Shown: piece by piece, positions 1 to 64,000 of the stretch
Layout: each line of letters starts with the position of its first letter
Numbering within the stretch: the stretch's first letter is position 1
Origin: Eledone cirrhosa
Lineage: Eukaryota
Reading direction: 5' to 3'
NCBI GenBank assembly: GCA_964016885.1
Contig: OZ024757.1
Location: forward strand, 43,648,001-43,712,000
DNA: 64,000 bases
Position numbers and translations under genes: made by a program
Notes under the pieces: model-generated
The model's database searches: none
Seen by the model: the letters and a program-made list of their open reading frames with translations, nothing else
Told to the model about the DNA's origin: nothing

Positions 1-5
1 TAAGT

Positions 6-118
6 AAAAAGAGTAGGAGATAACTCGACAAGAGCGGAGAGGGTGAGATTCGAACCATGTAAAGTCGTTGGCTCCTGAACTTCGTAAGCGGGGCTGCTAC
101 TGACTGAGCAGCGCCGGC
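6..118 (-). ncRNA. tRNA-derived Pol III cassette (A box, B box, T5 terminator); not a canonical tRNA
   Basis: The minus strand reads GCCGGCGCTGCTCAGTCAGTAG (A-box-like) ... TTACGAA ... GGTTCGAATCT (B box) ... CTCTTTTT. Acceptor and T stems do not pair. Confidence 0.45.
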
Positions 119-423
119 AGCAAGGCAAATCGCGCATAAAATAACGCTTATATCGACAAAAAAAAAAAAAAAATTTCATTGTTGCACTCTTGTTTGTTGT
201 TCTTTTATTTTACGTAAACATTTCGCTGCTCTAGCCTCTTATTTCCTATTAGATTACACTTAATTCCATTAAACATTCATTCTTAGTCTCGTGGTAAACT
301 ATTTCATCTATATTTATATCGCTGTTACAGCCTTTTATTTCTACATCTATCACCTATAGCCACTGTTACGCCGGTAGTATAAGTAGCTTTATAACAAGAA
401 ACGATGATATAACTCCACAAAAT

Positions 424-472
424 GTCTTCTTCAGCAAGACACTTCACTTCATATTGCTCCAGTACACCGAGT
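424..472 (+). mobile_element. Short fragment of the CORE-like SINE body (present in every unit)
   Basis: CTT(C/G)AGCAAGACACTTCAC(T/C)TCATATTGCTCCAGT matches the reverse complement of the SINE body at ~3945-3982. Confidence 0.6.
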
Positions 473-899
473 TACACATAGACAGATACATACATACATA
501 CACAGATAGAAATGAGAGGTAGATAGAGTAAAAGATTTAAAGAGAGTGTGAGAAGTACGAGTTAGATAGTGTAAAAGATTTAAAGAGAGGGTGAGAGTGT
601 GACACACATTTATCTGTCTATCTCTCTCTATTTTAACACCGGTCGTTATAATTAGTTTTATAACACCGCTATATTACCGACATGAAAGAGGTAAATAATT
701 ATTTCTTAAATGTTTAGAACATGTTTCTCTTGTCTTCTTAAATGTATAGAACATGTTTCTTATTTATATTCTTAACATAGCTAGGACCTTATCTCATTTA
801 CTGGTCTCTACTTTTAGGGCTTTGCTGGTCCCATGTGCCCTCCATGAAGACACACTCGCCCCTTCTCTCTCAGTCTCCGTACTAATTACTACACATACG

Positions 900-3070
900 T
901 ATATATATTTATTTTAAGAAACCTTAATGACAAATAATATAAAGTGTTTGTAAAGTGGGGAAGAGTAGTTTTACGGTGGGGTTGTTATATAGATATCGTT
1001 TTTGCAGTGGGGTCGTGACTGGCGTATAATAATGAGTCACTGTTGATGTATATACAAATCATGTTTTGGATATAAGTGAAGTTATTTAAGAGATTTAGTT
1101 GTTTTGTATACATTCATAACGGTACGCGATGGGACCCACCCACAGCCCCGGCGGACAGAATGGAGAAGGCGTTTCCCCGGAGCACGGCAAGGGAGACGCG
1201 CTGGAAAAGCCACTCCAACTCGCGGGGCTCACACCTGCGGCTGGCCAGCTCAGCGCCTATGGTGGTGAGTAAGGAGGTAGCCCTGGGGCCGAGGACACCA
1301 GAAGTCTCCACTTCCAGGGGTACGACCGCAAACCTGTCGGAGAGTGAACGATATGTGAGGAGTTTGGCCCCCTCAGCCTGACGTGCAGCAGAACCTGGGC
1401 CAGTCGCAGACTGCACCAGGTTGCGGCTGCAGAAAGTGTCGGTGCAAGTGGCATCCCAGACGAGGGGTTTGCCACCGCGGAGCGGGAAGATGGTCATGCC
1501 ATCTAGCCTTTTGCCGTCCCCTCGAGCTGGGAAGGGAAGCCTGCAGCGTCCAAGCCATGCTTAATGACTTCGTTGAGGGCAGCATGGCGTGGATTGCAGG
1601 TGGAGGCCGAAAGAGTCCATGGTGGAACGGCAGCGACATTGGTGTGAGGCCGAGCCTCAGGGAAACGCCGATGCGCAAGCTATTGTTGTCTAGCTGCGTG
1701 CGAGTGGAGAAGGAGGGCAGGGCATGGAGCCAGGCCCCACTGTGGGGTTTGGAGGCTGCACGAAAACAAACAAGGCGGTGCTGGTCGAGCTGGCACGTGA
1801 GCCTGTCTGAGGCCAGGCTGCACTGGATGGCATCCCAAGTGTGTTGGGGGGGACTTGACGTCAACAGGGGGAGAAGGAGGAGGAACGTCTACTGGGCTAA
1901 GTCCCAGCCGGTCCCACGTCTCACAGGCGGCCACGCGTTCTCTGAACACAGAGGGTTCTGCTGAAGAGGACGTGGTACGAGGTTACCGACGAAAGATATG
2001 CCGGCAAAGCTAGTGAGATCGGGGACTGGAGGCGAAGGCCGCCATACCTGACAGGTAAAGTTGCATATCTCATCGGCTGCTGCTCGGATACAAGTTTAGG
2101 TGTAGCACAGAGTGTATAGAGGAGCTTCGGCATGGCGTAGCAGTTCCTCAGCAGAAAGAGAACTGGGTGGCCATCAATCAAGCCCAGTCGGCTCGTGAGA
2201 GTCTGGACTTGATGGAGGAGCGGATGGCCGGCGGGTGGATCGGTGAGGGCATCCTCTTTGGGGGGTCACCTGAACCTGGCGGAGAATGGACCGCACGTCC
2301 AAGACGGAGACTGCAAAGCTTGCAGCATCGAGGCTGACATTCACCACCTCCGACTTGGCTGAGTTGACCTGGAGGTCGATTCCCGCCAGGGCAGGAACCA
2401 CCGATTGAAGGTCATGGCAGAACGCCTGTACGGGCCCACCCAAAGTAGCATCATCCAGATACCAAACGTTGAGAGGGGCCGTTATACTCCAGGCGATGTG
2501 GTCAATACCAAGGGTGAACAGGAGGGGTCCCAAAGGGTTGCCCTGTTGGATCCCAGTAGCCAAGGGTATGACCGTATCAGCAGCATGGCGCATGCTTGGG
2601 GCTCCATATGACAGGTAGGCAGAGGGGGCTCGGCTGAGGCAGGCCTCGAGCAGATGATCCCAGCGTAAAGAGTTGAAGGCATTCCTCATGTCAAACTTGA
2701 CAATGAGGTGGCTGGAGGCCCTGGATGCCGGTTCCGAGTGTTACGGACTTGCAGATTACCTTGGCAGCCAGCCTCCGGAAGACATTGCCCACAGCAATGG
2801 GGCGTATGCCATCCTCTTTCTTCCTGAGAGCGGTGAGGCTGGCCGAAAAAAAGAGGCCTCGAGCATAAGAGTCCAGGGCGCCATGGATGAGCCTATTGGT
2901 GAGCGCCACAATTGCACTCAGAAGGCGGCGCCCGGCCTCAGCGGAGAGGGGAGATATCAACTCCTTGAGGAGGCCTGGTCAGAGACCATCAACATCTCCG
3001 CAGCTGCTAGCTGGGAAGGACCTGATGGCGGACATGATGTCTGCATCAGAAGCCACAAGGAGCAAGTGTG
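900..3070 (-). mobile_element. CRE-clade non-LTR retrotransposon, 5'-truncated and frameshifted (RT, zinc-knuckle remnant, restriction-like endonuclease)
   Basis: Motifs in order across several frames: SAIRSFP..S.G..DGL*P, IRPIAVGNVFRRL, DMRNAFNS, GIQQGNPLGPLLF, WYLDDATL, LPVRYGGL, SGAWLHALP, PFRGGKPLVWDATC, VPLEVETSG, LFQRVSLAVLRGNA. AT-rich 3' UTR ends at AATAAATATATA near 900. Confidence 0.9.
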
Positions 3071-3523: not shown

Positions 3524-3662
3524 TTCTCTATCAAAAGCCTTCTCTATGTCCAAAGCTAAGTATAGTGGCTTATTTTTCTCTAAGAACCTCTTTTGTAGTT
3601 GTCTCACTAAGAAGAGGGCATCTGTTGCACTTTTCAGCGGCACAAAACCAAACTGCATCTCA
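3524..3662 (-). mobile_element. Internal RT fragment of an RTE LINE (in all units; cut at the 3641-equivalent position in type B)
   Basis: EMQFGFVPLKSATDALFLVRQLQKRFLEKNKPLYLALDIEKAFDR is homologous to the RTE ORF at 17215-18471. Confidence 0.85.
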
Positions 3663-3712
3663 TACACATACATACATATACATACATACATACATATACA
3701 CATACATACATA

Positions 3713-4067
3713 CATCATCATCATCATCATCATCATCATTTCGTTTTAAGTCCGCTTTTTCCCTGCTTGTAAGGGTGGGACGGGAACTGATTCTGGCTTG
3801 ATTTCTACAGCTGGATGCCCTTCCTAACACCAACCTCATTTACAGTGAGTGCTGAGTGCTTTTTTGCCGTGGCACCTCCACGACCACTTTGCAGTGGAAT
3901 GATATTGACCCCAGTCCCTATCATCTCATTTCTACAGCTGAGTAAACTGGAGCAATGTGAAATAAAGTGTCTTGCTCAAGGAAACAACACATCACCCGGT
4001 CTGAGAATTGAACTCACAACCTTTCGATTGCCAGGCCAATGCTCGAACCACTAAGCCATGTGCCTCC
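3713..4067 (-). mobile_element. tRNA-headed CORE-like SINE with RTE-derived tail and (ATG)n end
   Basis: Minus strand: GGAGGCACATGGCTTAGTGG (A box), GAGTTCAATTC (B box), CCTTGAGCAAGACACTTTATTTCACATTGCTCCAGTTTACTCAGCTGTAGAAATGAG (CORE-like), GGTGTTAGGAAGGGCATCCAGCTGTAG, CCCGTCCCACCCTTACAAGCAGGGAAAAAGCGGAC, then (ATG)n. Confidence 0.85.
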
Positions 4068-4543
4068 ATATACATATACATATACATACACATACATATA
4101 TATATACATACATACATATATACACATACATACATACACATACATACACATATACATACATATACATACATAGATATATATATATACATAATATAAATAT
4201 ATATACATACACATACATAAGCATATACACATAAGTATATATACATATACACACGTATATATACATATACATACATACATATATACACATACATACATAT
4301 ATACATACATACACACATATATACATATACACATACATACATATACATACATATACACATACATACATATATATATATACATACACACACATATATACAT
4401 ACACACACATATATACAAACACATACATATACACATATATACACATACATACACATACATATACATACATATACACATATACACTCATATATACATATAC
4501 ATACATACACACACATACATACATATATACATATACATACATA
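4068..4543. repeat. Compound (CA/TA/CATA)n microsatellite (copy at 9959-10434)
   Basis: ~475 bp of low-complexity alternating purine-pyrimidine sequence. Confidence 0.95.
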
Positions 4544-4544
4544 A

Positions 4545-5091
4545 AGACAAATCCACCTCATGGACGAGAATGCAAGGGCTCCTCCTCTTTGTTTCGGCCG
4601 CGGATGGCTAACCCTAACCCCATCCCCGCTCCCCACCGCTCCCAACCTCCAAACGCAATCCAAAACTTCAGAGTTGGTACCATTAATGTAGGCACCTTAT
4701 AGGGTGGCTCTAACGAGGTTGTAGAAATGCTTGAACGTAAGGAGGTCGATGTTTGTTGTATTCAAGAGACCAGGTGGAGGGGTGGGTCTGCTAGATTCAT
4801 CGTGGGTAAAGAACGATGCTATACGCTTTTCTGTGTGGCAAATGACAATGGGCTGGGTATACACATACCACCCCACCACCCCACCGCAAAGTGGTCGTGG
4901 AGGCGCCGCGGCAAAAAAGCACCCAGCCCACACTGTAAAGCTGACGTGGAGGTGCCACGGAAAAAAAAAAGCACCCAGCACTCACTGCAAACGGGGTTGG
5001 CGTCAGGAAGGGCACCCAGCTGTAGAAACCAATCCAGAATCAGCTCCCACCCCACCCTTGCAAGCATGGAAAAGCGGACGTATGATGAAGT

Positions 5092-5095
<4 letters not shown>
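4545..5095 (+). mobile_element. Internally deleted (bipartite) RTE: N-terminal APE endonuclease fragment fused to the 3' tail
   Basis: [43 protein letters not shown]...NDNGLG (APE N-terminus), then hairpin repeats, GGCGTCAGGAAGGGCACCCAGCTGTAG and CCCACCCTTGCAAGCATGGAAAAGCGGACGTATGATGA. Confidence 0.85.
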
Positions 5096-5144
<49 letters not shown>

Positions 5145-5653
5145 TATATATATACACATATATATATACACACATATATATCAGTGTACATATATATATA
5201 CATATATATATATATATAAATGAATATTTATTCAATTTAAAGCGCCAATTATCTATATATAACAAGATATGAATTTTTCTAGGGATGGGGAAATTTTCAG
5301 TTTGGTTTTTATATTTTCACTTCATTTTTTACTTTCTATTTAATACAGTCTTTGATCCAATATAATCCTGACAGTATTTGAACCAGTTTACCTCATATAT
5401 ATGTATGCACACACAACACTCAAGTTTCGCCATCTACTGCTATTTCATTCATATTTATTGTTTAATTAACTCTGGTCTAATTCATCAACTATTGTTAATT
5501 ATATTATTACGTAGATTTCTTATAAAATCTAGTGCATATATACGTGTATATATACAGGGAGACACTGTGTAATAGATGTAAAGAGAGTTATAGAAGTAAA
5601 GAGAGGGGGAGAAATAAGCGGTAGATAGAGTAATAGATGTAAAGAGAGGGTTA

Positions 5654-5830
5654 GAACGTTCAACTTGACAGTCAGTACAATGTTCAGCATGGTAGCCAGT
5701 ACATATGCCAACTACCCAACCGGCCAGCCAGCCGCATATGCGGTTGACTGGCCAGTTGGGCGGTTGGTATGTGGAACGTTCAACTACGCAGTCAGTACCA
5801 AAGTTCAACATTGTAGCCAGTGCATATGCC
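5654..5830. other. Direct repeat / 72-nt hairpin / direct repeat module (hairpin 5702-5773; hairpin copies at 11576, 21365, 31191, 41017, 50855, 62084)
   Basis: CATATGCCAACTACCCAACCGGCCAGCCAGCCGCAT|ATGCGGTTGACTGGCCAGTTGGGCGGTTGGTATGTG pairs at 33 of 36 positions, 4 of them G-T. It is flanked by two ~56-bp diverged repeats GAACGTTCAACT...GTAGCCAGT(A/G)CATATGCC. Confidence 0.9.
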
Positions 5831-5876
5831 GATCGCCGCGCCCTCTTTGCTCTATTTTAATGACCTGGAACTAAGT

Positions 5877-5989
5877 AAAAAGAGTAGGAGATAACTCGAC
5901 AAGAGCGGAGAGGGTGAGATTCGAACCATGTAAAGTCGTTGGCTCCTGAACTTCGTAAGCGGGGCTGCTACTGACTGAGGAGCGCCGGC
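5877..5989 (-). ncRNA. tRNA-derived Pol III cassette, copy 2
   Basis: As 6-118, with one substitution in the A box. Confidence 0.42.
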
Positions 5990-6770
5990 AGCAAGGCAAA
6001 TCGCGCATAAAATAACGCTTACATCGACAAAAAAAAAAAAAAAATTTCAATGTTGCACTCTTGTTTGTTGTTCTTTTATTTTACGTAAACATTTCGCTGC
6101 TCTAGCCTCTTATTTCCTATTAGATTACACTTAATTCCATTAAACATTCATTCTTAGTCTCGTGGTAAACTATTTCATCTATATTTATATCGCTGTTACA
6201 GCCTTTTATTTCTACATCTATCACCTATAGCCACTGTTACGCCGGTAGTATAAGTAGCTTTATAACAAGAAACGATGATATAACTCCACAAAATGTCTTC
6301 TTCAGCAAGACACTTCACTTCATATTGCTCCAGTACACCGAGTTACACATAGACAGATACATACATACATACACAGATAGAAATGAGAGGTAGATAGAGT
6401 AAAAGATTTAAAGAGAGTGTGAGAAGTACGAGTTAGATAGTGTAAAAGATTTAAAGAGAGGGTGAGAGTGTGACACACATTTATCTGTCTATCTCTCTCT
6501 ATTTTAACACCGGTCGTTATAATTAGTTTTATAACACCGCTATATTACCGACATGAAAGAGGTAAATAATTATTTCTTAAATGTTTAGAACATGTTTCTC
6601 TTGTCTTCTTAAATGTATAGAACATGTTTCTTATTTATATTCTTAACATAGCTACGACCTTATCTCATTTACTGGTCTCTACTTTTAGGGCTTTGCTGGT
6701 CCCATGTGCCCTCCATGAAGACACACTCGCCCCTTCTCTCTCAGTCTCCGTACTAATTACTACACATACG

Positions 6771-8961
6771 TATATATATTTATTTTAAGAAACCTTAATG
6801 ACAAATAATATAAGGTGTTTGTAAAGTGGGGAAGAGTAGTTTTACGGTGGGGTTGTTATATAGATATCGTTTTTGCAGTGGGGTCGTGACTGGCGTATAA
6901 TAATGAGTCACTGTTGATGTATATACAAATCATGTTTTGAATATAAGTGAAGTTATTTAAGAGATTTAGTTGTTTTGTATACATTCATAACGGTACGCGA
7001 TGGGACCCACCCACAGCCCCGGCGGACAGAATGGAGAAGGCGTTTCCCCGGAGCACGGCAAGGGAGACGCGCTGGAAAAGCCACTCCAACTCGCGGGGCT
7101 CACACCTGCGGCTGGCCAGCTCAGCGCCTATGGTGGTGAGTAAGGAGGTAGCCCTGGGGCCGAGGACACCAGAAGTCTCCACTTCCAGGGGTACGACCGC
7201 AAACCTGTCGGAGAGTGAACGATATGTGAGGAGTTTGGCCCCCTCAGCCTGACGTGCAGCAGAACCTGGGCCAGTCGCAGACTGCACCAGGTTGCGGCTG
7301 CAGAAAGTGTCGGTGCAAGTGGCATCCCAGACGAGGGGTTTGCCACCGCGGAACGGGAAGATGGTCATGCCATCTAGCCTTTTGCCGTCCCCTCGAGCTG
7401 GGAAGGGAAGCCTGCAGCGTCCAAGCCATGCTTAATGACTTCGTTGAGGGCAGCATGGCGTGGATTGCAGGTGGAGGCCGAAAGAGTCCATGGTGGAACG
7501 GCAGCGACATTGGTGTGAGGCCGAGCCTCAGGGAAACGCCGATGCGCAAGCTATTGTTGTCTAGCTGCGTGCGAGTGGAGAAGGAGGGCAGGGCATGGAG
7601 CCAGGCCCCACTGTGGGGTTTGGAGGCTGCACGAAAACAAACAAGGCGGTGCTGGTCGAGCTGGCACGTGAGCCTGTCTGAGGCCAGGCTGCACTGGATG
7701 GCATCCCAAGTGTGTTGGGGGGGACTTGACGTCAACAGGGGGAGAAGGAGGAGGAACGTCTACTGGGCTAAGTCCCAGCCGGTCCCACGTCTCACAGGCG
7801 GCCACGCGTTCTCTGAACACAGAGGGTTCTGTTGTGTTTTGAAGAACCCTGCTGAAGAGGACGTGGTACGAGGTTACCGACGAAAGATATGCCGGCAAAG
7901 CTAGTGAGATCGGGGACTGGAGGCGAAGGCCGCCATACCTGACAGGTAAAGTTGCATATCTCATCGGCTGCTGCTCGGATACAAGTTTAGGTGTAGCACA
8001 GAGTGTATAGAGGAGCTTCGGCATGGCGTAGCAGTTCCTCAGCAGAAAGAGAACTGGGTGGCCATCAATCAAGCCCAGTCGGCTCGTGAGAGTCTGGACT
8101 TGATGGAGGAGCGGATGGCCGGCGGGTGGATCGGTGAGGGCATCCTCTTTGGGGGGTCACCTGAACCTGGCGGAGAATGGACCGCACGTCCAAGACGGAG
8201 ACTGCAAAGCTTGCAGCATCGAGGCTGACATTCACCACCTCCGACTTGGCTGAGTTGACCTGGAGGTCGATTCCCGCCAGGGCAGGAACCACCGATTGAA
8301 GGTCATGGCAGAACGCCTGTACGGGCCCACCCAAAGTAGCATCATCCAGATACCAAACGTTGAGAGGGGCCGTTATACTCCAGGCGATGTGGTCAATACC
8401 AAGGGTGAACAGGAGGGGTCCCAAAGGGTTGCCCTGTTGGATCCCAGTAGCCAAGGGTATGACCGTATCAGCAGCATGGCGCATGCTTGGGGCTCCATAT
8501 GACAGGTAGGCAGAGGGGGCTCGGCTGAGGCAGGCCTCGAGCAGATGATCCCAGCGTAAAGAGTTGAAGGCATTCCTCATGTCAAACTTGACAATGAGGT
8601 GGCTGGAGGCCCTGGATGCCGGTTCCGAGTGTTACGGACTTGCAGATTACCTTGGCAGCCAGCCTCCGGAAGACATTGCCCACAGCAATGGGGCGTATGC
8701 CATCCTCTTTCTTCCTGAGAGCGGTGAGGCTGGCCGAAAAAAAGAGGCCTCGAGCATAAGAGTCCAGGGCGCCATGGATGAGCCTATTGGTGAGCGCCAC
8801 AATTGCACTCAGAAGGCGGCGCCCGGCCTCAGCGGAGAGGGGAGATATCAACTCCTTGAGGAGGCCTGGTCAGAGACCATCAACATCTCCGCAGCTGCTA
8901 GCTGGGAAGGACCTGATGGCGGACATGATGTCTGCATCAGAAGCCACAAGGAGCAAGTGTG
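6771..8961 (-). mobile_element. CRE-clade retrotransposon relic, copy 2 (type A)
   Basis: ORFs 6985-7368, 7244-7735, 7551-8072, 8065-8580 and 8582-8851 carry the same motifs. Confidence 0.9.
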
Positions 8962-9603
8962 GATTACAATACAAAACCTCTGAGAATGATTTCTAAGATA
9001 TTTCACCATAATTAATTTTCATCAATATATATTAATATTATTATTGTTTATTAGGTCAGGTGGATTGGCCAGAACAATTCTACTCTTCTTTTTTAGATGT
9101 CACGATTTTTCATGGCATTCCTGAGATCATTAATCTCCAGCTGGAGATCCAGAGACATCTGATGTATGTAGGTGAACCTCAGTCATCCCACTTGGCTCTT
9201 ACTATGTTTAGGTATCCACCACAGGAGCCAGCTCATCAGGTCATCCTACCCTCAGCAGCAATGTCCAGCATCTATTGATTTCCGCTCCCTAGTTATTGTG
9301 GTAATCTTCGATATCTGGGAATATATTTCTTCTGCTTAAGGGAGTAATAAATATATAGTTTTAAAAAAAACATATATATACACACACATATATATATGTT
9401 GTCATTTATAAGAGTTCTCTATCAAAAGCCTTCTCTATGTCCAAAGCTAAGTATAGTGGCTTATTTTTCTCTAAGAACCTCTTTTGTAGTTGTCTCACTA
9501 AGAAGAGGGCATCTGTTGCACTTTTCAGCGGCACAAAACCAAACTGCATCTCATACACATACATACATATACATACATACATACATATACACATACATAC
9601 ATA

Positions 9604-14835: not shown

Positions 14836-15768
14836 GATTACAATACAAAACCTCTGAGAATGATTTCTAAGATATTTCACCATAATTAATTTTCATCAAT
14901 ATATATTAATATTATTATTGTTTATTAGGTCAGGTGGATTGGCCAGAACAATTCTACTCTTCTTTTTTAGATGTCACGATTTTTCATGGCATTCCTGAGA
15001 TCATTAATCTCCAGCTGGAGATCCAGAGACATCTGATGTATGTAGGTGAACCTCAGTCATCCCACTTGGCTCTTACTATGTTTAGGTATCCACCACAGGA
15101 GCCAGCTCATCAGGTCATCCTACTCTCAGCAGCAATGTCCAGCATCTATTGATTTCCGCTCCCTAGTTATTGTGGTAATCTTCGATATCTGGGAATATAT
15201 TTCTTCTGCTTAAGGGAGTAATAAATATATAGTTTAAAAAAAAACATATATATACACACACATATATATATGTTGTCATTTATAAGAGTTCTCTATCAAA
15301 AGCCTTCTCTATGTCCAAAGCTAAGTATAGTGGCTTATTTTTCTCTAAGAACCTCTTTTGTAGTTGTCTCACTAAGAAGAGGGCATCTGTTGCACTTTTC
15401 AGCGGCTTAATTAATTAATGAGGTTTAATTAATGAGGAATTTTGAGGTATTTATAACAATTATTAATTATTTCATTACTGAGATATCATTTGAAGGACTT
15501 ACTAATGTTTTTATTTATTAATTATTTTATTAGTAACTTAACATGTGGTTCTTGTATAAAATTATGTTGGAAGATTTTAGGAAGATGCTATGTAGCCGGT
15601 CGCGGTAAAATAGACGCCCAGGCTATGTAGCCGGTAAGAGTGTCAGACTCCATGTGTTGCGGCCCTTTATGGTCTGAGTTAAGACAATTTAAAATCTTTT
15701 CCACCATCAATTGTTAAAAAACAAGTTAAAATCATTTTGTCGTCCATTTGTAACGTACGTTACACTTT

Positions 15769-16505
15769 AGTTACATACACATATACTATGTTACATACAC
15801 ACATCTACTGTGTTACATACACACACATCAACTGGGTTATATACACACACATCTACTGCGTTACATACACATCTACTGTGTTACACACACATCTACTGTG
15901 TTACATACACACACATCTACTGAGTTACATACACACACATCTACTGTGTTACATACACACACATCTTCTGTGTTACATACACACATCTACTATGTTACAT
16001 ACACACATCTACTGTGTTACATACACACACCTGTGTTACATACACACACATCTACTGAGTTACATACACACAGATCTACTGTGTTACATACACACACATC
16101 TACTGTGTTACACACATCTTCTATGTTACATACACACAATCTACTGTGTTACATACACACATCTACTGAGTTACATACACACACATCTACTGAGTTACAT
16201 ACACACACATGTACTGTGTTACATACACACATCTACTGTGTTACATACATACACATCTACTGTGTTACATACATACACATCTACTGTTACATACACACAT
16301 CTACCGTGCTACACACACACATCTACCGTGTTACACACACACATCTACCGTGTTACACACACACATCTACCGTGTTACACACACACATCTACTGAGTTAC
16401 ATACACATATACTGAGTTACATGCAAACACACATCTACTCTGTTACATATACACATCTACTGTGTTACATACACATCTACTGTGATACACACACACACAT
16501 CTACT
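15769..16505. repeat. ~20-24-bp minisatellite CTACTGTGTTACATACACAC(AC)AT
   Basis: More than 30 tandem copies; source of the spurious HTH-rich ORFs. Confidence 0.95.
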
Positions 16506-17334
16506 CATACATATTCATAAATAGACACACATTATACAAATAATTATTACATACACACACATCTCTGTAATAATTCAGGAAGGAAGGGGCTGGTGAAACG
16601 CTATAGCAATGTGTGTGTGTTGTGTACCTTTCAGGTTTACCGGTTTCGTAGCCTATTTGAAGATTTTATTATAATTATGAACCTTATAATTCAATTAATT
16701 ATGAATAATTTTGAGCTATTTATCACAATTGTTAGTTAATTACTAACATAGTAACTTACCATATGGTTGTTATATAGAATTTTGTTGGAAGACTTTAATT
16801 TAGATAGGAACCATTTCCATAGTACGAGAACTAATTTTGGCTGGGTTTCTACCAAAAGGGTTAATGAAGAATTTTGAACAATTTACTAAAATTATTAATT
16901 ATTTCATTACTAAGATAATGTGTGAATACACAATTATATGTGTGTATATATATATAAACAGTATATATATATATAGTATATATATATATAAACAGTATAT
17001 ATATATATATAGTATATATATATATAAACAGTATATATATAGTATACAAAAGATGTAGTGGGATAGTGTGTAGTCTTAAGACAAGTCTGTCCAGATAGCT
17101 GCGCTGTAACTTACACTTATTGGGACTGTGTGTTGGCAAGCAGGCCTGTATTTTGGGATCTAGCTGGTCCATTATGAGGGAGGTCTGGTTAGTTGGCAGC
17201 ACCATGCCTTACTTGTGGTATATGTATGTATAGAAATAAGTTATTGTATATGCATAACTGTCCATCTATATGTATACATGTATGTTTACTTATATCTTTG
17301 CATACATATATACATTTTCAGATGTATACACGTA

Positions 17335-19254
17335 ATGGTCACCCGGATAGTAAACCAAGTCATACAGAATGGGGTTGTTCTGAAGGACTGGCGTAGCAGC
17401 ATCATCATTAACTGTTACAAGGGTAAAGGAGATGCCCTAGATAGGAGTAACTATAGAGGCATTAAATTAATCGACCAGGTCATGAAGGTCACGGAAAAAG
17501 TAATAGCGCAACTAATCAGAGAGAGAATTGATCTAGATGAAATGCAGTTCGGGTTTGTGTCAGGTAAAAGTACCACAGACGCTCTTTTCATTGTACGACA
17601 ACTACAGGAGAAGTACCTAGTTAAAAGTAAACCCCTATACTTAGCTTTTGTTCACTTGGAGAAAGCCTTCGACAGAGTCCCCCGTTCCATTATCTGGTGG
17701 GCTCTTAGAAAACTAGGTGTTGAGGAATGGCTTGTGAGAGCTATACGAGCCATGTATAAAGAAACAGTCAGCAAGGTTAGAATTAACAACGAATATAGTG
17801 AAGAGTTTAGCGTAAAAGTTGGTGTTCATCAGGGCTCCGTCCTTAGCCCCCTACTATTTATTATTGCCCTTCAGGCTATAACAGTGGAGTTCAAGACCGG
17901 CTGCCCATGGGAACTCCTATACGCAGATGATCTAACGCTCATAGCTGAATCAATGGCCGAGCTAGAGAAGAAATTCCAAACATGGAAGCAAGGCCTAGAA
18001 TCAGAAGGCCTTAAAATTAACCTGGCTAAGACTAAAGTTCTAGTTTGTAGGAAAGAAAATAAGGCGCCGGTCCCTTACGGGAAATGGCCATGCTCAGTGT
18101 GTAGGAAAGACGTAGGTAGAAACTCCATTTTATGTCCCAAATGCAAAGTATGGGTTCATAAAAGATGTAGTGGGATCACAGGTAAGCTAACTAAGAACAT
18201 AGATTTTACATGTGGCCGGTGCTCTGGTGCAATAAGTAGCAGCAAGTGCCCACAAAATACTAGCTCTTTCAATTGCGCAGAGGGTTCTATAGAAATAGTG
18301 GACAGCTTCCGTTACCTGGGTGACAAAATCAGCAGTGGGGGAGGGTGCTCTGAAAGTACAGTAGCTAGAGTCAGAACTGGATGGAAAAAGTTCAGAGAGC
18401 TTATACCACTATTAGCCGCTAAAGGGTTCTCCCTAAAAATGAAAGGCAGGTTGTATGATGCCTGCATATGAACAGCAATGTTGCATGGCAGTGAGACCTG
18501 GGCATTGTGTGCAGAGGATATACGCAGACTAGAGAGGAACGAAGCTTGCATGCTTCGCTGGATGTGTAATAGTAATATATGTGAACGGCAAAGCATAAAC
18601 GAACTAAGGGAAAAATTAGAAATAAGAGGGATCAGATGTTGTGTACTCGAGAGAAGACTACGTTGGTATGGTCCACGTGATGCGGATGAAAGACGACAGC
18701 TGTATAAAAAAAATGCAGGGCAATAAAGATAGACGGTAGCCACGGAGTAGGCAGACCCAGAAAAACCTGGGACGACTTGATAAATTCCGACCTCACACAC
18801 TTACACCTCTCCAAGACAATGTCACTGGACCGAGATCTTTGGCGGTACTCAGTAATAGAGAAGACCCGCCTTACCTAGATACAAAGTAAAACCTACTACA
18901 GTCAGTAGGCACCTCTAACAAAATACACCCCCACCCCATCCACACCGCCCCTTTCAATGTAAAGTTATGTTGGTGCCACAACATCCAGGCCGAAACAAAT
19001 GAGGTCGTGTAGGTGTCACGACAAAAAAAAAAAACACAGTCCACGCAGTAATGTGGCCGTGTAGGTAACACGGTAAAAACCTCTCAGTCCCACACTGTAA
19101 ATGCGGTTGGTGTTAGGAAGGGCATCCAGCTGTAGAAAACCCGCCAGACAGTCCTATGCGAGCAAGACAACCACTCTTGCCTCAAGTGGGAAAATTCCCG
19201 TCCAAACCCATGCAAGCGTGGAATATGGACGTTAAACGATGATGATGATGATGA

Positions 19255-19258
<4 letters not shown>
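17335..19258 (+). mobile_element. 5'-truncated RTE-clade LINE (RT with embedded PHD finger), decayed; long 3' UTR and (GAT)n tail
   Basis: YKGKGDALDRSNYRGIKL, QFGF, AFV(H)LEKAFDRVPR, GVHQGSVLSPLLF, YADD, FRYLG. Premature stop at 18469-18471 and a later frameshift; GRPRKTW near the end; (GAT)7 at 19238-19258. Confidence 0.95.
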
Positions 19259-19289
<31 letters not shown>

Positions 19290-19292
<3 letters not shown>

Positions 19293-20414
19293 CTTTGACA
19301 TTTCTTAGAAAAAAAATGAAAAAGTTTTGTGAGAACCCCAATGTTTATTTATTTTATTTTATTTTTAAATAAAATTAATAACATTAATTTTATTTTGAAA
19401 TTAGGTTTATAAATATTAATTATCAGCAGACCTTTGTAGCAGTCTTGGCGGCTTAGTGGGAAGTACCAGAGATGGTGAGGTCCTTGTCTGTAGGTTCAAT
19501 CCTGGTCTGGGAGTTCAATCATTGCTGTAATGTGTCCTGTTAATCTTTTTTTAAATTTTCCTCAGAAAAAACTGAAAATCTTTGGTGAGAACCCCAATGT
19601 CTATTTATCTAATATAATTTAATTTATTTTATTTTATTTTACTTTAGTTAAATTGTCAAAACCACTGGTGATCTAAAGTTAGAGGAGACAGATAAAATAG
19701 ACATATTGTCTCCTCAACCTTTAGATCTTCAGTGTTTTCGACAATTTAACTAAAATAAAAAATTAAATTCAATATAATTAAATAAATAGGGGTTCTCTTT
19801 TTCAAAGAGATATAGAAAGAAAATTATAAAAGATTAACATGACACCTTACATGTATCTCATGGACCAGGATTGAACCTGAGTCCCCAATTCAACCCTCAG
19901 ACCAGGATTGAACACCCAGAACAGGATCTCACCATCTCTGGTACTTCCCACTAAGCTACCGAGACTGATACAAAGATGTACTGAAATTTAATATTTATAA
20001 ACCTACTTTCAAAATAAAATTAAAAATAAAATATATATATATATATATTCCTTTGACATTTCTTAGAAAAAAGAACTGAAAAAGTTTTGTGAGAACGCCA
20101 ATGTCTATTTATTTTATTTTATTTTTAATTAAATTAGTTATATTTTGAAAGTAGGTTTATAAATATTAATTTTCAATAGACCTTTGTAGCAGTCTTGGTG
20201 GCTTAGTGGGAAGTACCAGAGATGGTGAGATCCTTGTCTGTAAGTTCAATTCTTGCTTGGAGACATGTCTAATGTGTCCTATTAATCTTTTTTTAATTTT
20301 CCTTTTACATCTCTTAGAAATAACTGAAAATCTTTGGTGAGAACCCCAATGTCTATTTATCTAATATAATTAATTTAATTTAATTTAATTTAATTTTTAT
20401 TTTAGTGAAACCAC
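19290..20414. mobile_element. AT-rich foldback element (inverted arms 19385-20022, each with a tRNA-like A/B box) plus a tandem partial arm at 20048-20414
   Basis: Centre TTTAGTTAAATTGTCAAAACCACTG..GATCTAAAG..GAGGAGACA / TGTCTCCTC..CTTTAGATC..CAGTGTTTTCGACAATTTAACTAAA. GCTTAGTGGGAAGTACCAGAGATGGTGAG is mirrored by CTCACCATCTCTGGTACTTCCCACTAAGC. Bounded by (TA)n. Confidence 0.8.
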
Positions 20415-24681: not shown

Positions 24682-25614
24682 GATTACAATACAAAACCTC
24701 TGAGAATGATTTCTAAGATATTTCACCATAGTTAATTTTCATCAATATATATTAATATTATTATTGTTTATTAGGTCAGGTGGATTGGCCAGAACAATTC
24801 TACTCTTCTTTTTTAGATGTCACGATTTTTCATGGCATTCCTGAGATCATTAATCTCCAGCTGGAGATCCAGAGACATCTGATGTATGTAGGTGAACCTC
24901 AGTCATCCCACTTGGCTCTTACTATGTTTAGGTATCCACCACAGGAGCCAGCTCATCAGGTCATCCTACTCTCAGCAGCAATGTCCAGCATCTATTGATT
25001 TCCGCTCCCTAGTTATTGTGGTAATCTTCGATATCTGGGAATATATTTCTTCTGCTTAAGGGAGTAATAAATATATAGTTTAAAAAAAAACATATATATA
25101 CACACACATATATATATGTTGTCATTTATAAGAGTTCTCTATCAAAAGCCTTCTCTATGTCCAAAGCTAAGTATAGTGGCTTATTTTTCTCTAAGAACCT
25201 CTTTTGTAGTTGTCTCACTAAGAAGAGGGCATCTGTTGCACTTTTCAGCGGCTTAATTAATTAATGAGGTTTAATTAATGAGGAATTTTGAGGTATTTAT
25301 AACAATTATTAATTATTTCATTACTGAGATATCATTTGAAGGACTTACTAATGTTTTTATTTATTAATTATTTTATTAGTAACTTAACATGTGGTTCTTG
25401 TATAAAATTATGTTGGAAGATTTTAGGAAGATGCTATGTAGCCGGTCGCGGTAAAATAGACGCCCAGGCTATGTAGCCGGTAAGAGTGTCAGACTCCATG
25501 TGTTGCGGCCCTTTATGGTCTGAGTTAAGACAATTTAAAATCTTTTCCACCATCAATTGTTAAAAAACAAGTTAAAATCATTTTGTCGTCCATTTGTAAC
25601 GTACGTTACACTTT

Positions 25615-26351
25615 AGTTACATACACATATACTATGTTACATACACACATCTACTGTGTTACATACACACACATCAACTGGGTTATATACACACACATCT
25701 ACTGCGTTACATACACATCTACTGTGTTACACACACATCTACTGTGTTACATACACACACATCTACTGAGTTACATACACACACATCTACTGTGTTACAT
25801 ACACACACATCTTCTGTGTTACATACACACATCTACTATGTTACATACACACATCTACTGTGTTACATACACACACCTGTGTTACATACACACACATCTA
25901 CTGAGTTACATACACACAGATCTACTGTGTTACATACACACACATCTACTGTGTTACACACATCTTCTATGTTACATACACACAATCTACTGTGTTACAT
26001 ACACACATCTACTGAGTTACATACACACACATCTACTGAGTTACATACACACACATGTACTGTGTTACATACACACATCTACTGTGTTACATACATACAC
26101 ATCTACTGTGTTACATACATACACATCTACTGTTACATACACACATCTACCGTGCTACACACACACATCTACCGTGTTACACACACACATCTACCGTGTT
26201 ACACACACACATCTACCGTGTTACACACACACATCTACTGAGTTACATACACATATACTGAGTTACATGCAAACACACATCTACTCTGTTACATATACAC
26301 ATCTACTGTGTTACATACACATCTACTGTGATACACACACACACATCTACT
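25615..26351. repeat. Minisatellite, unit 4
   Basis: As 15769-16505. Confidence 0.95.
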
Positions 26352-27178
26352 CATACATATTCATAAATAGACACACATTATACAAATAATTATTACATAC
26401 ACACACATCTCTGTAATAATTCAGGAAGGAAGGGGCTGGTGAAACGCTATAGCAATGTGTGTGTGTTGTGTACCTTTCAGGTTTACCGGTTTCGTAGCCT
26501 ATTTGAAGATTTTATTATAATTATGAACCTTATAATTCAATTAATTATGAATAATTTTGAGCTATTTATCACAATTGTTAGTTAATTACTAACATAGTAA
26601 CTTACCATATGGTTGTTATATAGAATTTTGTTGGAAGACTTTAATTTAGATAGGAACCATTTCCATAGTACGAGAACTAATTTTGGCTGGGTTTCTACCA
26701 AAAGGGTTAATGAAGAATTTTGAACAATTTACTAAAATTATTAATTATTTCATTACTAAGATAATGTGTGAATACACAATTATATGTGTGTATATATATA
26801 TAAACAGTATATATATATATAGTATATATATATATAAACAGTATATATATATATAGTATATATATATATAAACAGTATATATATAGTATACAAAAGATGT
26901 AGTGGGATAGTGTGTAGTCTTAAGACAAGTCTGTCCAGATAGCTGCGCTGTAACTTACACTTATTGGGACTGTGTGTTGGCAAGCAGGCCTGTATTTTGG
27001 GATCTAGCTGGTCCATTATGAGGGAGGTCTGGTTAGTTGGCAGCACCATGCCTTACTTGTGGTATATGTATGTATAGAAATAAGTTATTGTATATGCATA
27101 ACTGTCCATCTATATGTATACATGTATGTTTACTTATATCTTTGCATACATATATACATTTTCAGATGTATACACGTA

Positions 27179-29098: not shown

Positions 29099-29102
<4 letters not shown>
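27179..29102 (+). mobile_element. Truncated RTE LINE, unit 4
   Basis: ORF 27059-28315; retains AFVDLEK. Confidence 0.95.
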
Positions 29103-29129
<27 letters not shown>

Positions 29130-29132
<3 letters not shown>

Positions 29133-30697: not shown

Positions 30698-30732
<35 letters not shown>

Positions 30733-31365: not shown

Positions 31366-31478
31366 AAAAAGAGTAGGAGATAACTCGACAAGAGCGGAGA
31401 GGGTGAGATTCGAACCATGTAAAGTCGTTGGCTCCTGAACTTCGTAAGCGGGGCTGCTACTGACTGAGCAACGCCGGC
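31366..31478 (-). ncRNA. tRNA-derived Pol III cassette, copy 5
   Basis: As copy 4. Confidence 0.45.
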
Positions 31479-34507: not shown

Positions 34508-35440
34508 GATTACAATACAAAACCTCTGAGAATGATTTCTAAGATATTTCACCATAGTTAATTTTCATCAATATATATTAATATTATTATTGTTTATTAG
34601 GTCAGGTGGATTGGCCAGAACAATTCTACTCTTCTTTTTTAGATGTCACGATTTTTCATGGCATTCCTGAGATCATTAATCTCCAGCTGGAGATCCAGAG
34701 ACATCTGATGTATGTAGGTGAACCTCAGTCATCCCACTTGGCTCTTACTATGTTTAGGTATCCACCACAGGAGCCAGCTCATCAGGTCATCCTACTCTCA
34801 GCAGCAATGTCCAGCATCTATTGATTTCCGCTCCCTAGTTATTGTGGTAATCTTCGATATCTGGGAATATATTTCTTCTGCTTAAGGGAGTAATAAATAT
34901 ATAGTTTAAAAAAAAACATATATATACACACACATATATATATGTTGTCATTTATAAGAGTTCTCTATCAAAAGCCTTCTCTATGTCCAAAGCTAAGTAT
35001 AGTGGCTTATTTTTCTCTAAGAACCTCTTTTGTAGTTGTCTCACTAAGAAGAGGGCATCTGTTGCACTTTTCAGCGGCTTAATTAATTAATGAGGTTTAA
35101 TTAATGAGGAATTTTGAGGTATTTATAACAATTATTAATTATTTCATTACTGAGATATCATTTGAAGGACTTACTAATGTTTTTATTTATTAATTATTTT
35201 ATTAGTAACTTAACATGTGGTTCTTGTATAAAATTATGTTGGAAGATTTTAGGAAGATGCTATGTAGCCGGTCGCGGTAAAATAGACGCCCAGGCTATGT
35301 AGCCGGTAAGAGTGTCAGACTCCATGTGTTGCGGCCCTTTATGGTCTGAGTTAAGACAATTTAAAATCTTTTCCACCATCAATTGTTAAAAAACAAGTTA
35401 AAATCATTTTGTCGTCCATTTGTAACGTACGTTACACTTT

Positions 35441-58690: not shown

Positions 58691-58694
<4 letters not shown>
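56771..58694 (+). mobile_element. Truncated RTE LINE, unit 7
   Basis: ORF 56651-57907; retains AFVDLEK. Confidence 0.95.
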
Positions 58695-58728
<34 letters not shown>

Positions 58729-59247: not shown

Positions 59248-60528
59248 CATCATCATCATCATCATCATCATTTTACGTCCGCTTTTCCCTGCTTGCAAGG
59301 GTGGGACGGGTCTTATTCAGCACAGCATCTCTCCACTCGTCACGGTCCCTCGTCATCTCCACCGTGAGCTTCAATGATCTGAGGTCTGTTCTCACCACCT
59401 CCGCCCATGTTTTTCGTGGTCTACCTCTACCACGTCTTCCTTCAACTGGCATTTCCTGGCACTTCTTCACCCATCGGTCATCCTCCATGCGCATCACATG
59501 TCCATACCACCTCAGTCTCCTCTCCCGTACACTACATTCTATCCCTCTCAGACACAGTTTCTCTCTCAACACATTTATGCTGGGTCGTTCACGCACATTT
59601 ACACTGCACATCCAACGGAGCATGCTTGCCTCATTTCTCTCCAGCCGTCGCATATCTTCTGCGGTAGCTGCCCATGTCTCACTACCATGCAGCATCGCGC
59701 TCCTCACACAGGCATCATACAACCGGCCTTTCGTACGCAGGGAGAAACCCTTCTTCGTCAACAGAGGAAGCAGCTCCCTAAACTTCTTCCAACCCGTCCT
59801 TATTCTAGATACTATGGCCTCGGAACACCCTCCTCCCATGCTAATCTGATCTCCTAGGTACCGGAAGCTATCCACCACTTCTATAGCGCCCTCTCGCATT
59901 TGAAAAATGTGTCTATCAGTGCGACTTCTACTGTCTAATTTCCCTGTACATCTACTGCATACATATTTCTCCCTACCTGTTAGTTTGCCTGCTATCCCGC
60001 TACATCTCTTGTGTACCCAGGACCTACATTGTGTGCATTTTATAGAATTTATGCCAGTTCCTTTTCTGCATATCGAACATGGCCATTTCCCTGACGGAAT
60101 CAGGGTTTTGTCCTCTTTTCTACTCATCAACACTTTTGTCTTAGCGAGGTTCACTCTCAGTCCTCTTGCTTCCAACTGCTGTTTCCATAGCCGGAATTTA
60201 TTCTCTAGCTCCTCTACTGATTCTGCCATAAGAGCCAGATCGTCAGCATAGAGAAGTTCCCATGGACAGCCAGTCTTAAACTCCTCTGTTATGGCTTGGA
60301 GGACTATAATGAACAAGAGCGGGCTGAGGACCGAACCCTGATGTACTCCTACTTGTATCTGGAATTCCTCACTAAACTCCATTCCTACCCTGACTTTACT
60401 GAGAGTACCTCTGTACAAAGTTTGCACTGTCCTTACAAGCCATTCCTCAACACCCAGCTTCCTTAGGGACCACCAGATGACAGATCGGGGTACCCTATCA
60501 AAGGCCTTCTCTAGGTCAACAAAGGCTA
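59248..60528 (-). mobile_element. Young 5'-truncated RTE LINE insertion unique to unit 7 (second RTE family)
   Basis: Uninterrupted frame from LAFVDLEKAFDRVPR to ...KTRPTLASREKRT*, followed at once by (TGA)n. AGAT occurs at both junctions (59244-59247 and 60529-60532). The empty site is present in units 3-6. Confidence 0.96.
59273..60528 (-). CDS. RTE reverse transcriptase C-terminal half with PHD finger (open frame, 5'-truncated)
   Basis: ORF-track 384-aa ORF at 59273-60427, still open upstream to the truncation point; GVHQGSVLSPLLF, YADD, CSIC..CTQC..HKRC..CSRC, FRYLG, RLRWYGHVMR, RGRGRPRKTW. Confidence 0.85.
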
Positions 60529-61578: not shown

Positions 61579-61613
<35 letters not shown>

Positions 61614-62258
61614 AATGAATATTTATTCAATTTAAAGCGCCAATTATCTATATATAACAAGATATGAATTTTTCTAGGGATGGGGAAATTTTCAGTTTGT
61701 TTTTATATTTTCACTTCATTTTTTACTTTCTATTTAATACAGTCTTTGATCCAATATAATCCTGACAGTATTTGAACCAGTTTACCTCATATATATGTAT
61801 GCACACACAACACTCAAGTTTCGCCATCTACTGCTATTTCATTCATATTTATTGTTTAATTAACTCTGGTCTAATTCATCAACTATTGTTAATTATATTA
61901 TTACGTAGATTTCTTATAAAATCTAGTGCATATATACGTGTATATATACAGGGAGACACTGTGTAATAGATGTAAAGAGAGTGGGAGATAGAGTTATAGA
62001 AGTAAAGAGAGGGAGAGAAATAAGCGGTAGATAGAGCAATAGATGTAAAGAGAGGGTTAGAACGTTCAACTTGACAGTCAGTACATATGCCAACTACCCA
62101 ACCGGCCAGCCAGCCGTATTTGCGGTTGACTGGCCAGTTGGGCGGTTGGTATGTGGAACGTTCAACTATGCAGTCAGTACCAAAGTTCAACATTGTAGCC
62201 AGTGCATATGCCGATCGCCGCGACCTCTTTGCTCTATTTAAATGACCTGGAACTAAGT

Positions 62259-62371
62259 AAAAAGAGTAGGAGATAACTCGACAAGAGCGGAGAGGGTGAG
62301 ATTCGAACCATGTAAAGTCGTTGGCTCCTGAACTTCGTAAGCGGGGCTGCTACTGACTGAGCAACGCCGGC
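62259..62371 (-). ncRNA. tRNA-derived Pol III cassette, copy 8
   Basis: As copy 4. Confidence 0.45.
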
Positions 62372-63161
62372 AGCAAGGCAAATCGCGCATAAAATAACGC
62401 TTATATCGAGAAAATAAAACAAAAATTTCAATGTTGCACTCTTGTTTGTTGTTCTTTTATTTTACGTAAACATTTCGCTGCTCTAGCCTCTTATTTCCTA
62501 TTAGATTACACTTAATTCCATTAAACATTCATTCTTAGTCTCGTGGTAAACTATTTCATCTATATTTATATCGCTGTTACAGCCTTTTATTTCTACATCT
62601 ATCACCTATAGCCACTGTTACGCCGGTAGTATAAGTAGCTTTATAACAAGAAACGATGATATAACTCCACAAAATGTCTTCTTGAGCAAGACACTTCACC
62701 TCATATTGCTCCAGTACACCGAGTTACACATAGACAGATACATACATACACATATATATGTACACAGATAGAAATAAGAGGGAGATAGAGTAAAAGATGT
62801 AAAGAGAGGGTGAGAAGTACGAGTTAGATAGTGTAAAAGATTTAAAGAGAGGGTGAGAGTGTGACACACATTTATCTGTCTATCTCTCTCTATTTTAACA
62901 CCGGTCGTTATAATTAGTTTTATAACACCGCTATATTACCGACATGAAAGAGGTAAATAATTATTTCTTAAATGTTTAGAACATGTTTCTCTTGTCTTCT
63001 TAAATGTATAGAACATGTTTCTTATTTATATTCTTAACATAGCTAGGACCTTATCTCATTTACTGGTCTCTACTTTTAGGGCTTTGCTGGTCCCATGTGC
63101 CCTCCATGAAGACACACTCGCCCCTTCTCTCTCAGTCTCCGTACTAATTACTACACATACG

Positions 63162-64000
63162 TATATATATTTATTTTAAGAAACCTTAATGACAAATAAT
63201 ATAAAGTGTTTGTAAAGTGGGGAAGAGTAGTTTTACGGTGGGGTTGTTATATAGATATCGTTTTTGCAGTGGGGTCGTGACTGGCGTATAATAATGAGTC
63301 ACTGTTGATGTATATACAAATCATATTTTGGATATAAGTGAAGTTATTTAAGAGATTTAGTTGTTTTGTATACATTCCAGTTGTTGTCTCCCTGTTTCTT
63401 CTTCAACAACTATAACGGTACGCGATGGGGCCCACCCACAGCCCCGGCGGACAGAATGGAGAAGGCGTTTCCCCGGAGCACGGCAAGGGAGACGCGCTGG
63501 AAAAGCCACTCCAACTCGCGGGGCTCACACCTGCGACTGGCCAGCTCAGCGCCTATGGTGGTGAGTAAGGAGGTAGCCCTGGGGTCGAGGACACCAGAAG
63601 TCTCCACTTCCAGGGGTACGACCGCAAACCTGTCGGAGAGTGAACGATATGTGAGGAGTTTGGCCCTCTCAGCCTGACGTGCAGCAGAACCTGGGCCAGT
63701 CGCAGACTGCACCAGGTTGCGGCTGCAGAAAGTGTCGGTGCAAGTGGCATCCCAGACGAGGGGTTTGCCACCGCGGAACGGGAAGATGGTCATGCCATCT
63801 GGCCTTTTGCCGTCCCCTGGAGCTGGGAAGGGAAGCCTGCAGCGTCCAAGCCATGCTTAATGATTTCGTTGAGGGCAGCATGGCGTGGATTGCGGCTGGC
63901 ACTGTGGCGACAGGAAAGCGGGTGGAGGCCGAAAGAGTCCATGGTGGAACGGCAGCGACATTGGTGTGAGGCCGAGCCTCAGGGAAACGCCGATGCGCAA
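63162..64000 (-). mobile_element. CRE-clade retrotransposon relic, copy 8 (3' part)
   Basis: Endonuclease ORF at 63410-63793. Confidence 0.9.

What the first reader, a model, noticed from the sequence alone, without database searches (positions are those of the whole stretch)
1..64000. A macrosatellite made entirely of dead retrotransposons, caught switching from a 5.9-kb to a 9.8-kb monomer
Seen: eight near-identical head-to-tail units (5871, 5874, 9789, 9826, 9826, 9838, 11229 bp and a partial one) with no host gene. All CRE copies share one 5' truncation point, and the + strand RTE copies share the same truncation and the same stop. They were therefore amplified as a block rather than by independent retrotransposition. 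Known: kb-scale tandem arrays usually carry a functional gene (rDNA, 5S, snRNA, histone) or act as centromeric, subtelomeric or piRNA loci. Inference: a young array under concerted evolution. It holds pieces of several retroelement families on both strands, so it could be an amplified small-RNA trap locus or a nascent centromeric satellite.
Basis: partly seen in the sequence, partly recalled or inferred. Interest (0 to 1): 0.75.

Follow-up and report, generated by a model that had tools for sequence, protein, structure and literature searches.

The report
Young gene-less repeat near chromosome ends
This is a slice of a real 6-10 kb tandem repeat, built from broken jumping-gene pieces and a scrap of a host gene, that sits in the same orientation 60-120 kb inside many chromosome ends of this animal and likely spread as a passenger when chromosome ends copied one another.

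Summary
The array is real and the unit lengths are exact. It is not a lone locus caught switching. The window is part of a 185-kb array lying 93 kb from the telomere. About 326 cores exist genome-wide, in 11 multi-unit arrays plus 4 chromosome ends with 1-3 copies. All point the same way and run into one shared distal block; their inner boundaries differ. Short (181) and long (84) junctions are mixed in every array and sometimes form 15.7- or 21.6-kb higher-order repeats. The short unit is ancestral. Only about half of it is retroelement; 0.5 kb is the non-coding 3' part of host zinc-finger genes into which the CRE inserted. Arrays on two chromosomes differ by 0.87% with no fixed difference. 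Contig depths suggest roughly 100-fold more copies than in two related organisms (uncontrolled). Best reading: a young, neutral subtelomeric macrosatellite spread by end-to-end exchange. A small-RNA role is untested; a centromere is unlikely. The scan had not noted this repeat on other DNA.

The parts
1..64000 (+). Slice of a subtelomeric macrosatellite array that runs from about -11.7 kb to +174.1 kb in window coordinates (23 cores), followed by a 93-kb shared distal block and about 16 kb of telomere repeat
3642..9532 (+). Short (S) unit, 5.9 kb: S-specific 1.1 kb plus 4.8-kb core; ancestral form
25253..35078 (+). Long (L) unit, 9.8 kb: L-specific 5.0 kb plus the same core; derived form
15407..20414 (+). 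L-specific block (also 25253-30254, 35079-40080, 44905-49906, 54710-61135); matches DNA that flanks the core on its inner side at the C18 right end and C5 right end
6987..8957 (-). 5'-truncated, frameshifted CRE-clade non-LTR retrotransposon (RT plus C-terminal endonuclease-type region), same junction in every complete copy in the window
8958..9414 (-). Non-coding segment found just 3' of host C2H2 zinc-finger reading frames elsewhere; with 6787-6811 it forms the site into which the CRE inserted; no zinc-finger exon is in the unit
9415..9554 (-). RTE reverse-transcriptase fragment, continuous across the S junction and cut at the L junction
3716..4061 (-). RTE 3'-tail / SINE-like high-copy pieces
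4070..4543 (.). ATAC-type microsatellite, likely crossover site of the first tandem duplication (inferred)
4544..4894 (+). RTE 5' endonuclease fragment, continuous in S units, cut at 4754 in L units
5219..6786 (.). Unassigned core sequence found only in this repeat family; holds the hairpin and a degenerate tRNA-like stretch (about 5890-6010, minus strand, not called by ARAGORN or Rfam)
5700..5775 (+). Strong imperfect hairpin (z -7.5, picked by eye; 4-nt loop) between two short direct repeats
15770..16505 (.). 22-24-bp minisatellite inside the L-specific block
27158..29100 (+). 5'-truncated RTE (RT plus PHD finger) with one shared in-frame stop in all five window copies
59248..60528 (-). Later, independent 5'-truncated RTE insertion with 4-bp target duplication; makes the 11.2-kb unit; 98-100% identical copies lie elsewhere

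Best explanation
This is a young macrosatellite that forms the inner edge of a block shared by many chromosome ends, and it likely expanded and spread as a neutral passenger of recombination between those ends. Shown: a CRE inserted into a scrap of a zinc-finger gene; that stretch became a 5.9-kb tandem unit; a 9.8-kb variant arose by swapping 1.1 kb for 5 kb of inner flank; all arrays join the same distal block at the same base but start at different points; variants are shared between chromosomes. Inferred: the first duplication came by unequal crossover between microsatellites; broken or eroded ends were rebuilt by copying another end from a point inside the array out to its telomere (break-induced replication or ectopic crossover); unequal exchange and gene conversion then changed copy number, mixed S and L units and built higher-order repeats.
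For: Position and polarity: (telomere seen for 8 of 11 multi-unit arrays and 4 of 4 low-copy ends; 2 arrays reach a contig end inside the distal block; 1 is on an unplaced contig that starts with telomere-like sequence). Same distal junction at 22 places, read directly at C2, C6, C8, C9, C10, C11 (twice), C18 and C24. Different inner break-in points at C6, C8, C9, C10, C11, C13 (both), C15, C18 and C1499. 86 cores: 0.76% within C18, 0.81% within C8, 0.87% between them, 2.1% against low-copy copies; 52 shared polymorphisms and 0 fixed differences; 1017 of 2346 site pairs show all four gametes. Nearest neighbour on the same chromosome for 44 of 48 units, so local duplication is the most recent step. 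CRE frame pN/pS about 1.06 with stops (rough). Ends with 1-3 copies exist. Contig depths imply about 3-4 copies in two related organisms, so large arrays look dispensable.
Against: No RNA or chromatin data, so neutrality rests on absence of a gene and on variable copy number. An expansion from a few to about 326 copies on 11 ends is large for drift alone. CpG transitions are 2.9-fold enriched (39 of 256 against 73 of 1398), which fits germline methylation and possibly a silencing role. Copying versus reciprocal exchange cannot be told apart from one haploid assembly. The cross-organism depth ratio has no single-copy control, and run X2 may be the assembly's own sample.
Confidence: 0.66

Rival explanations
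1. Same history, but the arrays act as a subtelomeric piRNA cluster (like Drosophila TAS) that silences CRE and RTE families, and perhaps zinc-finger transcripts through the captured 3' segment; this role would have favoured the expansion.
For: Subtelomeric, retroelement-rich tandem repeat with pieces on both strands. New RTE copies have landed in it (59248-60528 and +165.6 kb). CpG transitions enriched. TAS precedent (PMC5737368, abstract and introduction read).
Against: No small-RNA data. RT-coding pieces lie on both strands in the flanks as well, as anywhere in this repeat-rich genome. Related organisms seem to have only a few copies. The CRE and RTE pieces are a small sample of families with very many dispersed copies (depths).
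Confidence: 0.2
2. The arrays are a structural buffer: heterochromatic spacers or recombination templates that help heal or pair chromosome ends (like yeast Y' elements as a telomerase back-up).
For: Fixed polarity and a fixed place next to the shared distal block at every end; each new end begins inside the array.
Against: Ends with 1-3 copies still carry normal telomeres; telomere tracts of 5-16 kb are present. In yeast, removing X and Y' had little effect (PMC11042809, abstract).
Confidence: 0.08
3. A nascent centromeric satellite on telocentric chromosomes.
For: Long homogeneous monomers with higher-order repeats; mouse telocentric ends carry shared satellites next to the centromere (PMC10880262, passages).
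Against: Arrays at both ends of C13; ends with one copy; no large satellite in 28 inner-flank stretches (largest tandem runs 2-5 kb); few copies in relatives.
Confidence: 0.04
4. Assembly artefact: a few real copies multiplied by the assembler.
For: Five copies of the end block are scaffolded inside chromosomes next to 200-N gaps, so placement errors exist.
Against: No N in the C18 array; units carry distinct, tree-like variants; unit-specific depth in run X2 is about 4,700-7,000 against 7-11 for diverged single CRE pieces in the same run.
Confidence: 0.02

Closest known systems
Human D4Z4 macrosatellite and subtelomeric shared blocks (PMC11062572 abstract; bioRxiv 10.64898/2026.07.10.737660 abstract and opening paragraphs)
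   Same: Multi-kb tandem unit inside a subtelomeric block about 99% identical between non-homologous ends; variable copy number; exchange between ends.
   Different: No intact gene found here (D4Z4 carries DUX4); 11 arrays rather than two; two monomer sizes (5.9 and 9.8 kb) with higher-order repeats.
Sobo satellite of wild potato and other retrotransposon-derived satellites (PMC3648361 passages)
   Same: Long monomer (4.7 kb in Sobo) mixing retrotransposon, satellite and genomic DNA; amplified as a block.
   Different: Sobo is one pericentromeric locus of about 360 kb made from LTR-element pieces; this one is subtelomeric, on many chromosomes, from non-LTR CRE and RTE pieces and a host gene scrap.
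Drosophila TAS-R/TAS-L subtelomeric repeats (PMC5737368 abstract and introduction)
   Same: Non-coding tandem repeats with retroelement pieces, shared by several ends, gained and lost quickly.
   Different: TAS units are 1.8 kb or less, adjoin the telomere and are shown piRNA clusters; here units are 6-10 kb, 60-120 kb from the telomere, and piRNA output is untested.
Yeast Y' elements (PMC11042809 abstract) and rye subtelomeric arrays (PMC4857426 abstract)
   Same: Subtelomeric repeats at a subset of ends, spread by recombination, largely dispensable or co-amplified with transposon pieces.
   Different: Y' adjoins telomeric repeats and (recalled, not checked) encodes a helicase; rye monomers are short. 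This unit has no telomeric repeats inside and no intact frame.

Membership tests
Macrosatellite | Head-to-tail units of several kb over tens to hundreds of kb | tested here: met
   23 cores over 185 kb on C18, 25 on C8
Macrosatellite | High identity between units with concerted evolution | tested here: met
Macrosatellite | Copy number varies between individuals | not tested
   Varies between ends (1 to more than 25); no second individual was laid on the core
Subtelomeric shared block (pseudo-homologous ends) | Near-identical sequence at non-homologous ends, same polarity to the telomere | tested here: met
   95-99% identity over the distal stretches read
Subtelomeric shared block (pseudo-homologous ends) | Ongoing exchange between ends | tested here: inconclusive
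   Shared variants, no fixed differences and four-gamete pairs fit exchange, but also recent common origin plus exchange within arrays
D4Z4-type gene-bearing macrosatellite | Intact gene in each unit | tested here: not met
   a novel non-coding RNA cannot be excluded
Site-specific CRE retrotransposon array (active elements inserting into a tandem target) | Independent insertions with differing 5' ends and intact copies; empty sites inside the array | tested here: not met
   One shared junction; empty sites lie at 65 dispersed places outside the arrays; stops and frameshifts
Subtelomeric piRNA cluster (TAS-like) | Subtelomeric tandem repeat rich in transposon pieces | tested here: met
Subtelomeric piRNA cluster (TAS-like) | Produces 23-31-nt PIWI-bound RNAs in gonads | not testable with these tools
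   no small-RNA data on hand
Centromeric satellite | One array per chromosome, on all or most chromosomes | tested here: not met
   two arrays on C13, single copies at other ends, no L junction on C1-C5; scaffolding errors weaken this test
Centromeric satellite | CENP-A chromatin | not testable with these tools
   needs ChIP or CUT&Tag

The most novel reading that the evidence does not exclude
A subtelomeric small-RNA locus caught at birth: a 6-kb mosaic of CRE, RTE and zinc-finger-gene 3' sequence was amplified about 100-fold since the split from very close relatives and swept over at least 11 chromosome ends because its RNAs silence active retrotransposons and tune a large zinc-finger gene family in trans.
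Probability: 0.13. Interest if true: 0.72.

Novelty: new variant of a known kind. Interest (0 to 1): 0.4.

Why it matters
One genome holds the whole series: the empty target, old dispersed copies, ends with one unit, arrays of tens of units, two monomer sizes and budding higher-order repeats. That makes the birth and spread of a macrosatellite traceable step by step, and lets the neutral, piRNA and end-repair models be compared between ends that have the array and ends that do not. It also flags five real chromosome ends scaffolded inside chromosomes in this assembly. The processes themselves are known, so the interest is moderate unless small RNAs or special chromatin are found.

Tried and rejected
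Hidden RNA gene: Rfam at gathering score found 0 in the window; at E up to 5 on one long unit only weak matches, the best to TA-rich microRNA models over microsatellites; ARAGORN 0. The tRNA-like stretch does not fold better than shuffles (z +0.6) and a 30-mer from it has 326 matches at up to 3 mismatches against 271 exact, so it is not a large dispersed family at that stringency. The hairpin has a 4-nt loop and no family match; no function assigned. Bacterial promoter scan is not meaningful for an animal and showed fewer sites than shuffles. Strand bias of retroelement pieces: both strands in flanks and distal block, no clear signal. Active site-specific CRE: rejected. Interstitial arrays as fusion scars: C11 (two), C2 0.76 Mb, C4 and C24 copies end in telomere plus a 200-N gap, so they are read as misplaced ends; for C2 412.4 Mb, C3 and C18 10.5 Mb no telomere was seen in the 30 kb sampled at the expected place. 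Sequencing runs: no RNA holder listed. A single-copy depth control was not obtained, so the copy ratios between organisms remain uncontrolled. Literature searches for such an array in octopus or cephalopods returned none that describes it; only listings were seen and the library lacks most subscription papers. No supplements were read.
Full report
Observation. Each unit has a 4.8-kb core joined to either a 1.1-kb S block or a 5.0-kb L block. The 7 complete CRE copies share one 5' junction and the 5 plus-strand RTE copies share one stop. The 11.2-kb unit is an L unit with a later 1.28-kb RTE insertion flanked by a 4-bp duplication.

Place. The window is G000:C18:43,648,001-43,712,000 on a 43.93-Mb contig of a 3.0-Gb genome. 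Reading 90 kb upstream and on to the contig end shows a gap-free array from about -11.7 kb to +174.1 kb, then 93 kb of other DNA, then about 16 kb of telomere repeat. A core 30-mer has 271 exact and 326 near-exact matches, with 0 for the reversed control; this is about 2.3 Mb or 0.08% of the genome. Multi-unit arrays lie at C6 right, C8 left, C9 left, C10 right, C13 both ends, C18 right, C19 left, twice on C11 and on unplaced C1499; C15 starts inside an array. Telomere repeats were seen beyond 8 of these 11; C8 and C10 end inside the shared block; C1499 starts with telomere-like sequence. For C6, C9, C13 and C19 I read the junction or the terminal 10 kb, not the whole stretch between. The two C11 arrays, and low-copy copies on C2 (0.76 Mb), C4 and C24, run into telomere repeats followed by a 200-N gap, so they are most simply real ends scaffolded inward. 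C5 right is a true contig end with one unit. In all 15 cases the unit points the same way towards the telomere, 60-120 kb away where measured.

Boundaries. The last unit joins the distal block at one junction, found 22 times in the genome; the distal block is 95-99% identical over the stretches read. Inner boundaries differ: each chromosome enters the array at a different point in the unit. A fixed outer edge with scattered inner edges is what copying or swapping of whole ends from a point inside the array would leave (inference; break-induced replication as a source of shared subtelomere blocks is discussed in PMC10760449, passages).

No switch. Exact junction counts are 181 S and 84 L. Along C18 the order is SSLLLLLLSSSSLLSSLSSSSSS and along C8 SLLSLSSLLSSSLSLSSSSSLLSSS. 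On C13 right, 7 of 14 L-to-L spacings are 21.6 kb (SSL; binomial p 0.002, tested after seeing the pattern) and on C10 right 6 of 12 are 15.7 kb (SL; p 0.03), so higher-order repeats are forming. S is ancestral: two RTE fragments run unbroken across the S junctions and are cut at both L junctions, and older dispersed copies on C2, C3, C19 and C20 are S type. The L block matches the inner flank of the core at C18 right and C5 right, and an older, longer form survives on C2, so L captured flank DNA.

Contents. The minus-strand element matches RT proteins with a C-terminal endonuclease-type region, one annotated as SLACS-like, over residues 243-979 of a 984-residue relative; the CRE label rests on that and on recalled clade features. 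About half of the S unit is retroelement-derived. Contigs of run X2 showed a form that skips the CRE; a gapped pattern found that empty site at 65 places, 30 of them between 5.6 and 12.8 Mb on C18. In 6 of 6 such loci examined, window 8958 onward matches at 79-93% over 78-460 bp, and in 4 of 6 a C2H2 zinc-finger frame lies just upstream on the same strand; 3 of 3 frames scanned hit Pfam zf-C2H2. So the CRE landed in a scrap of a host zinc-finger gene. About 1.6 kb of core is unassigned and specific to this family; it holds a strong hairpin (z -7.5, chosen by eye).

Evolution. I aligned 86 cores for which both anchors were found (23 from C18, 25 from C8, 26 from parts of other arrays, 12 low-copy); truncated copies were left out. 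Mean divergence is 0.76% within C18, 0.81% within C8, 0.87% between them and 2.1% against low-copy copies; 44 of 48 units have their nearest relative on the same chromosome. C18 and C8 share 52 polymorphisms with 0 fixed differences; 1017 of 2346 site pairs show four gametes. The longest CRE frame has pN/pS about 1.06 with stops (rough: variants counted against one copy, alignment noise included). CpG transitions are enriched 2.9-fold in arrays, which suggests methylation but not a function.

Other organisms. The core is held by runs of three coded organisms. Unit-specific contig depth is about 6,300 in X2, 15 in X1 and 5 in X5, while a high-copy SINE-like piece differs only 5- and 11-fold; the ratio implies 78- and 119-fold more copies in X2, or about 3-4 copies in the others. 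The X1 contig differs by 7 substitutions in 1790 bases, so the expansion would be very recent. The tool warns that such depths are not copy numbers, X2 may be the source sample, and no single-copy control was obtained; treat this as a lead.

Mechanism. Shown: CRE into zinc-finger scrap; S tandem; L by flank capture; shared outer junction; mixed arrays; shared variants. Inferred: first duplication at microsatellites, spread by end-to-end copying or ectopic crossover, turnover by unequal exchange and conversion, no selected function (0.66). Rivals: TAS-like piRNA locus (0.20), end-repair buffer (0.08), centromere (0.04), artefact (0.02).

Comparison. It works like the D4Z4-bearing shared subtelomeres of humans but has no gene; its make-up resembles the Sobo satellite; its setting resembles Drosophila TAS. 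It meets the tested features of a macrosatellite and of a shared subtelomeric block, fails those of a gene-bearing array, an active site-specific CRE array and a one-per-chromosome centromeric satellite, and cannot be tested as a piRNA cluster. Papers seen: PMC5737368 abstract and introduction; bioRxiv 10.64898/2026.07.10.737660 abstract and opening paragraphs; PMC11062572, PMC4857426, PMC11042809 abstracts; PMC3648361, PMC10760449, PMC10880262, PMC10547256 passages. Searches listed no description of such an array in octopus or cephalopods.

Verdict. A real, young, gene-less subtelomeric macrosatellite family; a new variant of a known kind; interest 0.4.

Noticed in passing
G000:C11 32.85 Mb and 35.21 Mb; C2 0.83 Mb; C4 1.885 Mb; C24 9.11 Mb: Telomere tracts of several kb next to 200-N gaps inside scaffolds: real chromosome ends probably scaffolded inward.
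   Followed up: partly
window +196,000 to +217,400 (L024-L026): A second tandem array with a 3.35-kb unit of RTE fragments inside the shared distal block; copy number differs between ends.
   Followed up: partly
window +165,635 to +168,682 (L021): Near-full-length RTE with a 933-codon open frame and a short target duplication, inserted in the same place in the C18 and one C11 array: a shared insertion that links these two ends.
   Followed up: partly
G000:C18 5.6-12.8 Mb, C27, C28, C8, C9, C12, C23: Clusters of zinc-finger loci that share a conserved non-coding 3' segment; 65 exact pattern matches.
   Followed up: partly
L040 (G000:C1499:1-10000): Contig starts with G-strand telomere repeats, then degraded low-complexity sequence, then C-strand repeats; either a fold-back read artefact or an end-to-end junction.
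   Followed up: no
window +266,930 to +267,350: Variant telomeric repeats (extra G or T) at the inner edge of the telomere tract.
   Followed up: no
G000:C58 136-167 kb: The distal junction itself is repeated at 10-kb spacing on an unplaced contig, a third monomer type.
   Followed up: no
window 5656-5835: Two direct repeats of about 60 bp enclosing a 37-bp-stem hairpin, possibly a template-switch scar.
   Followed up: partly
window +237,445 to +243,483: 6-kb array of an 11-bp repeat in the distal block.
   Followed up: no
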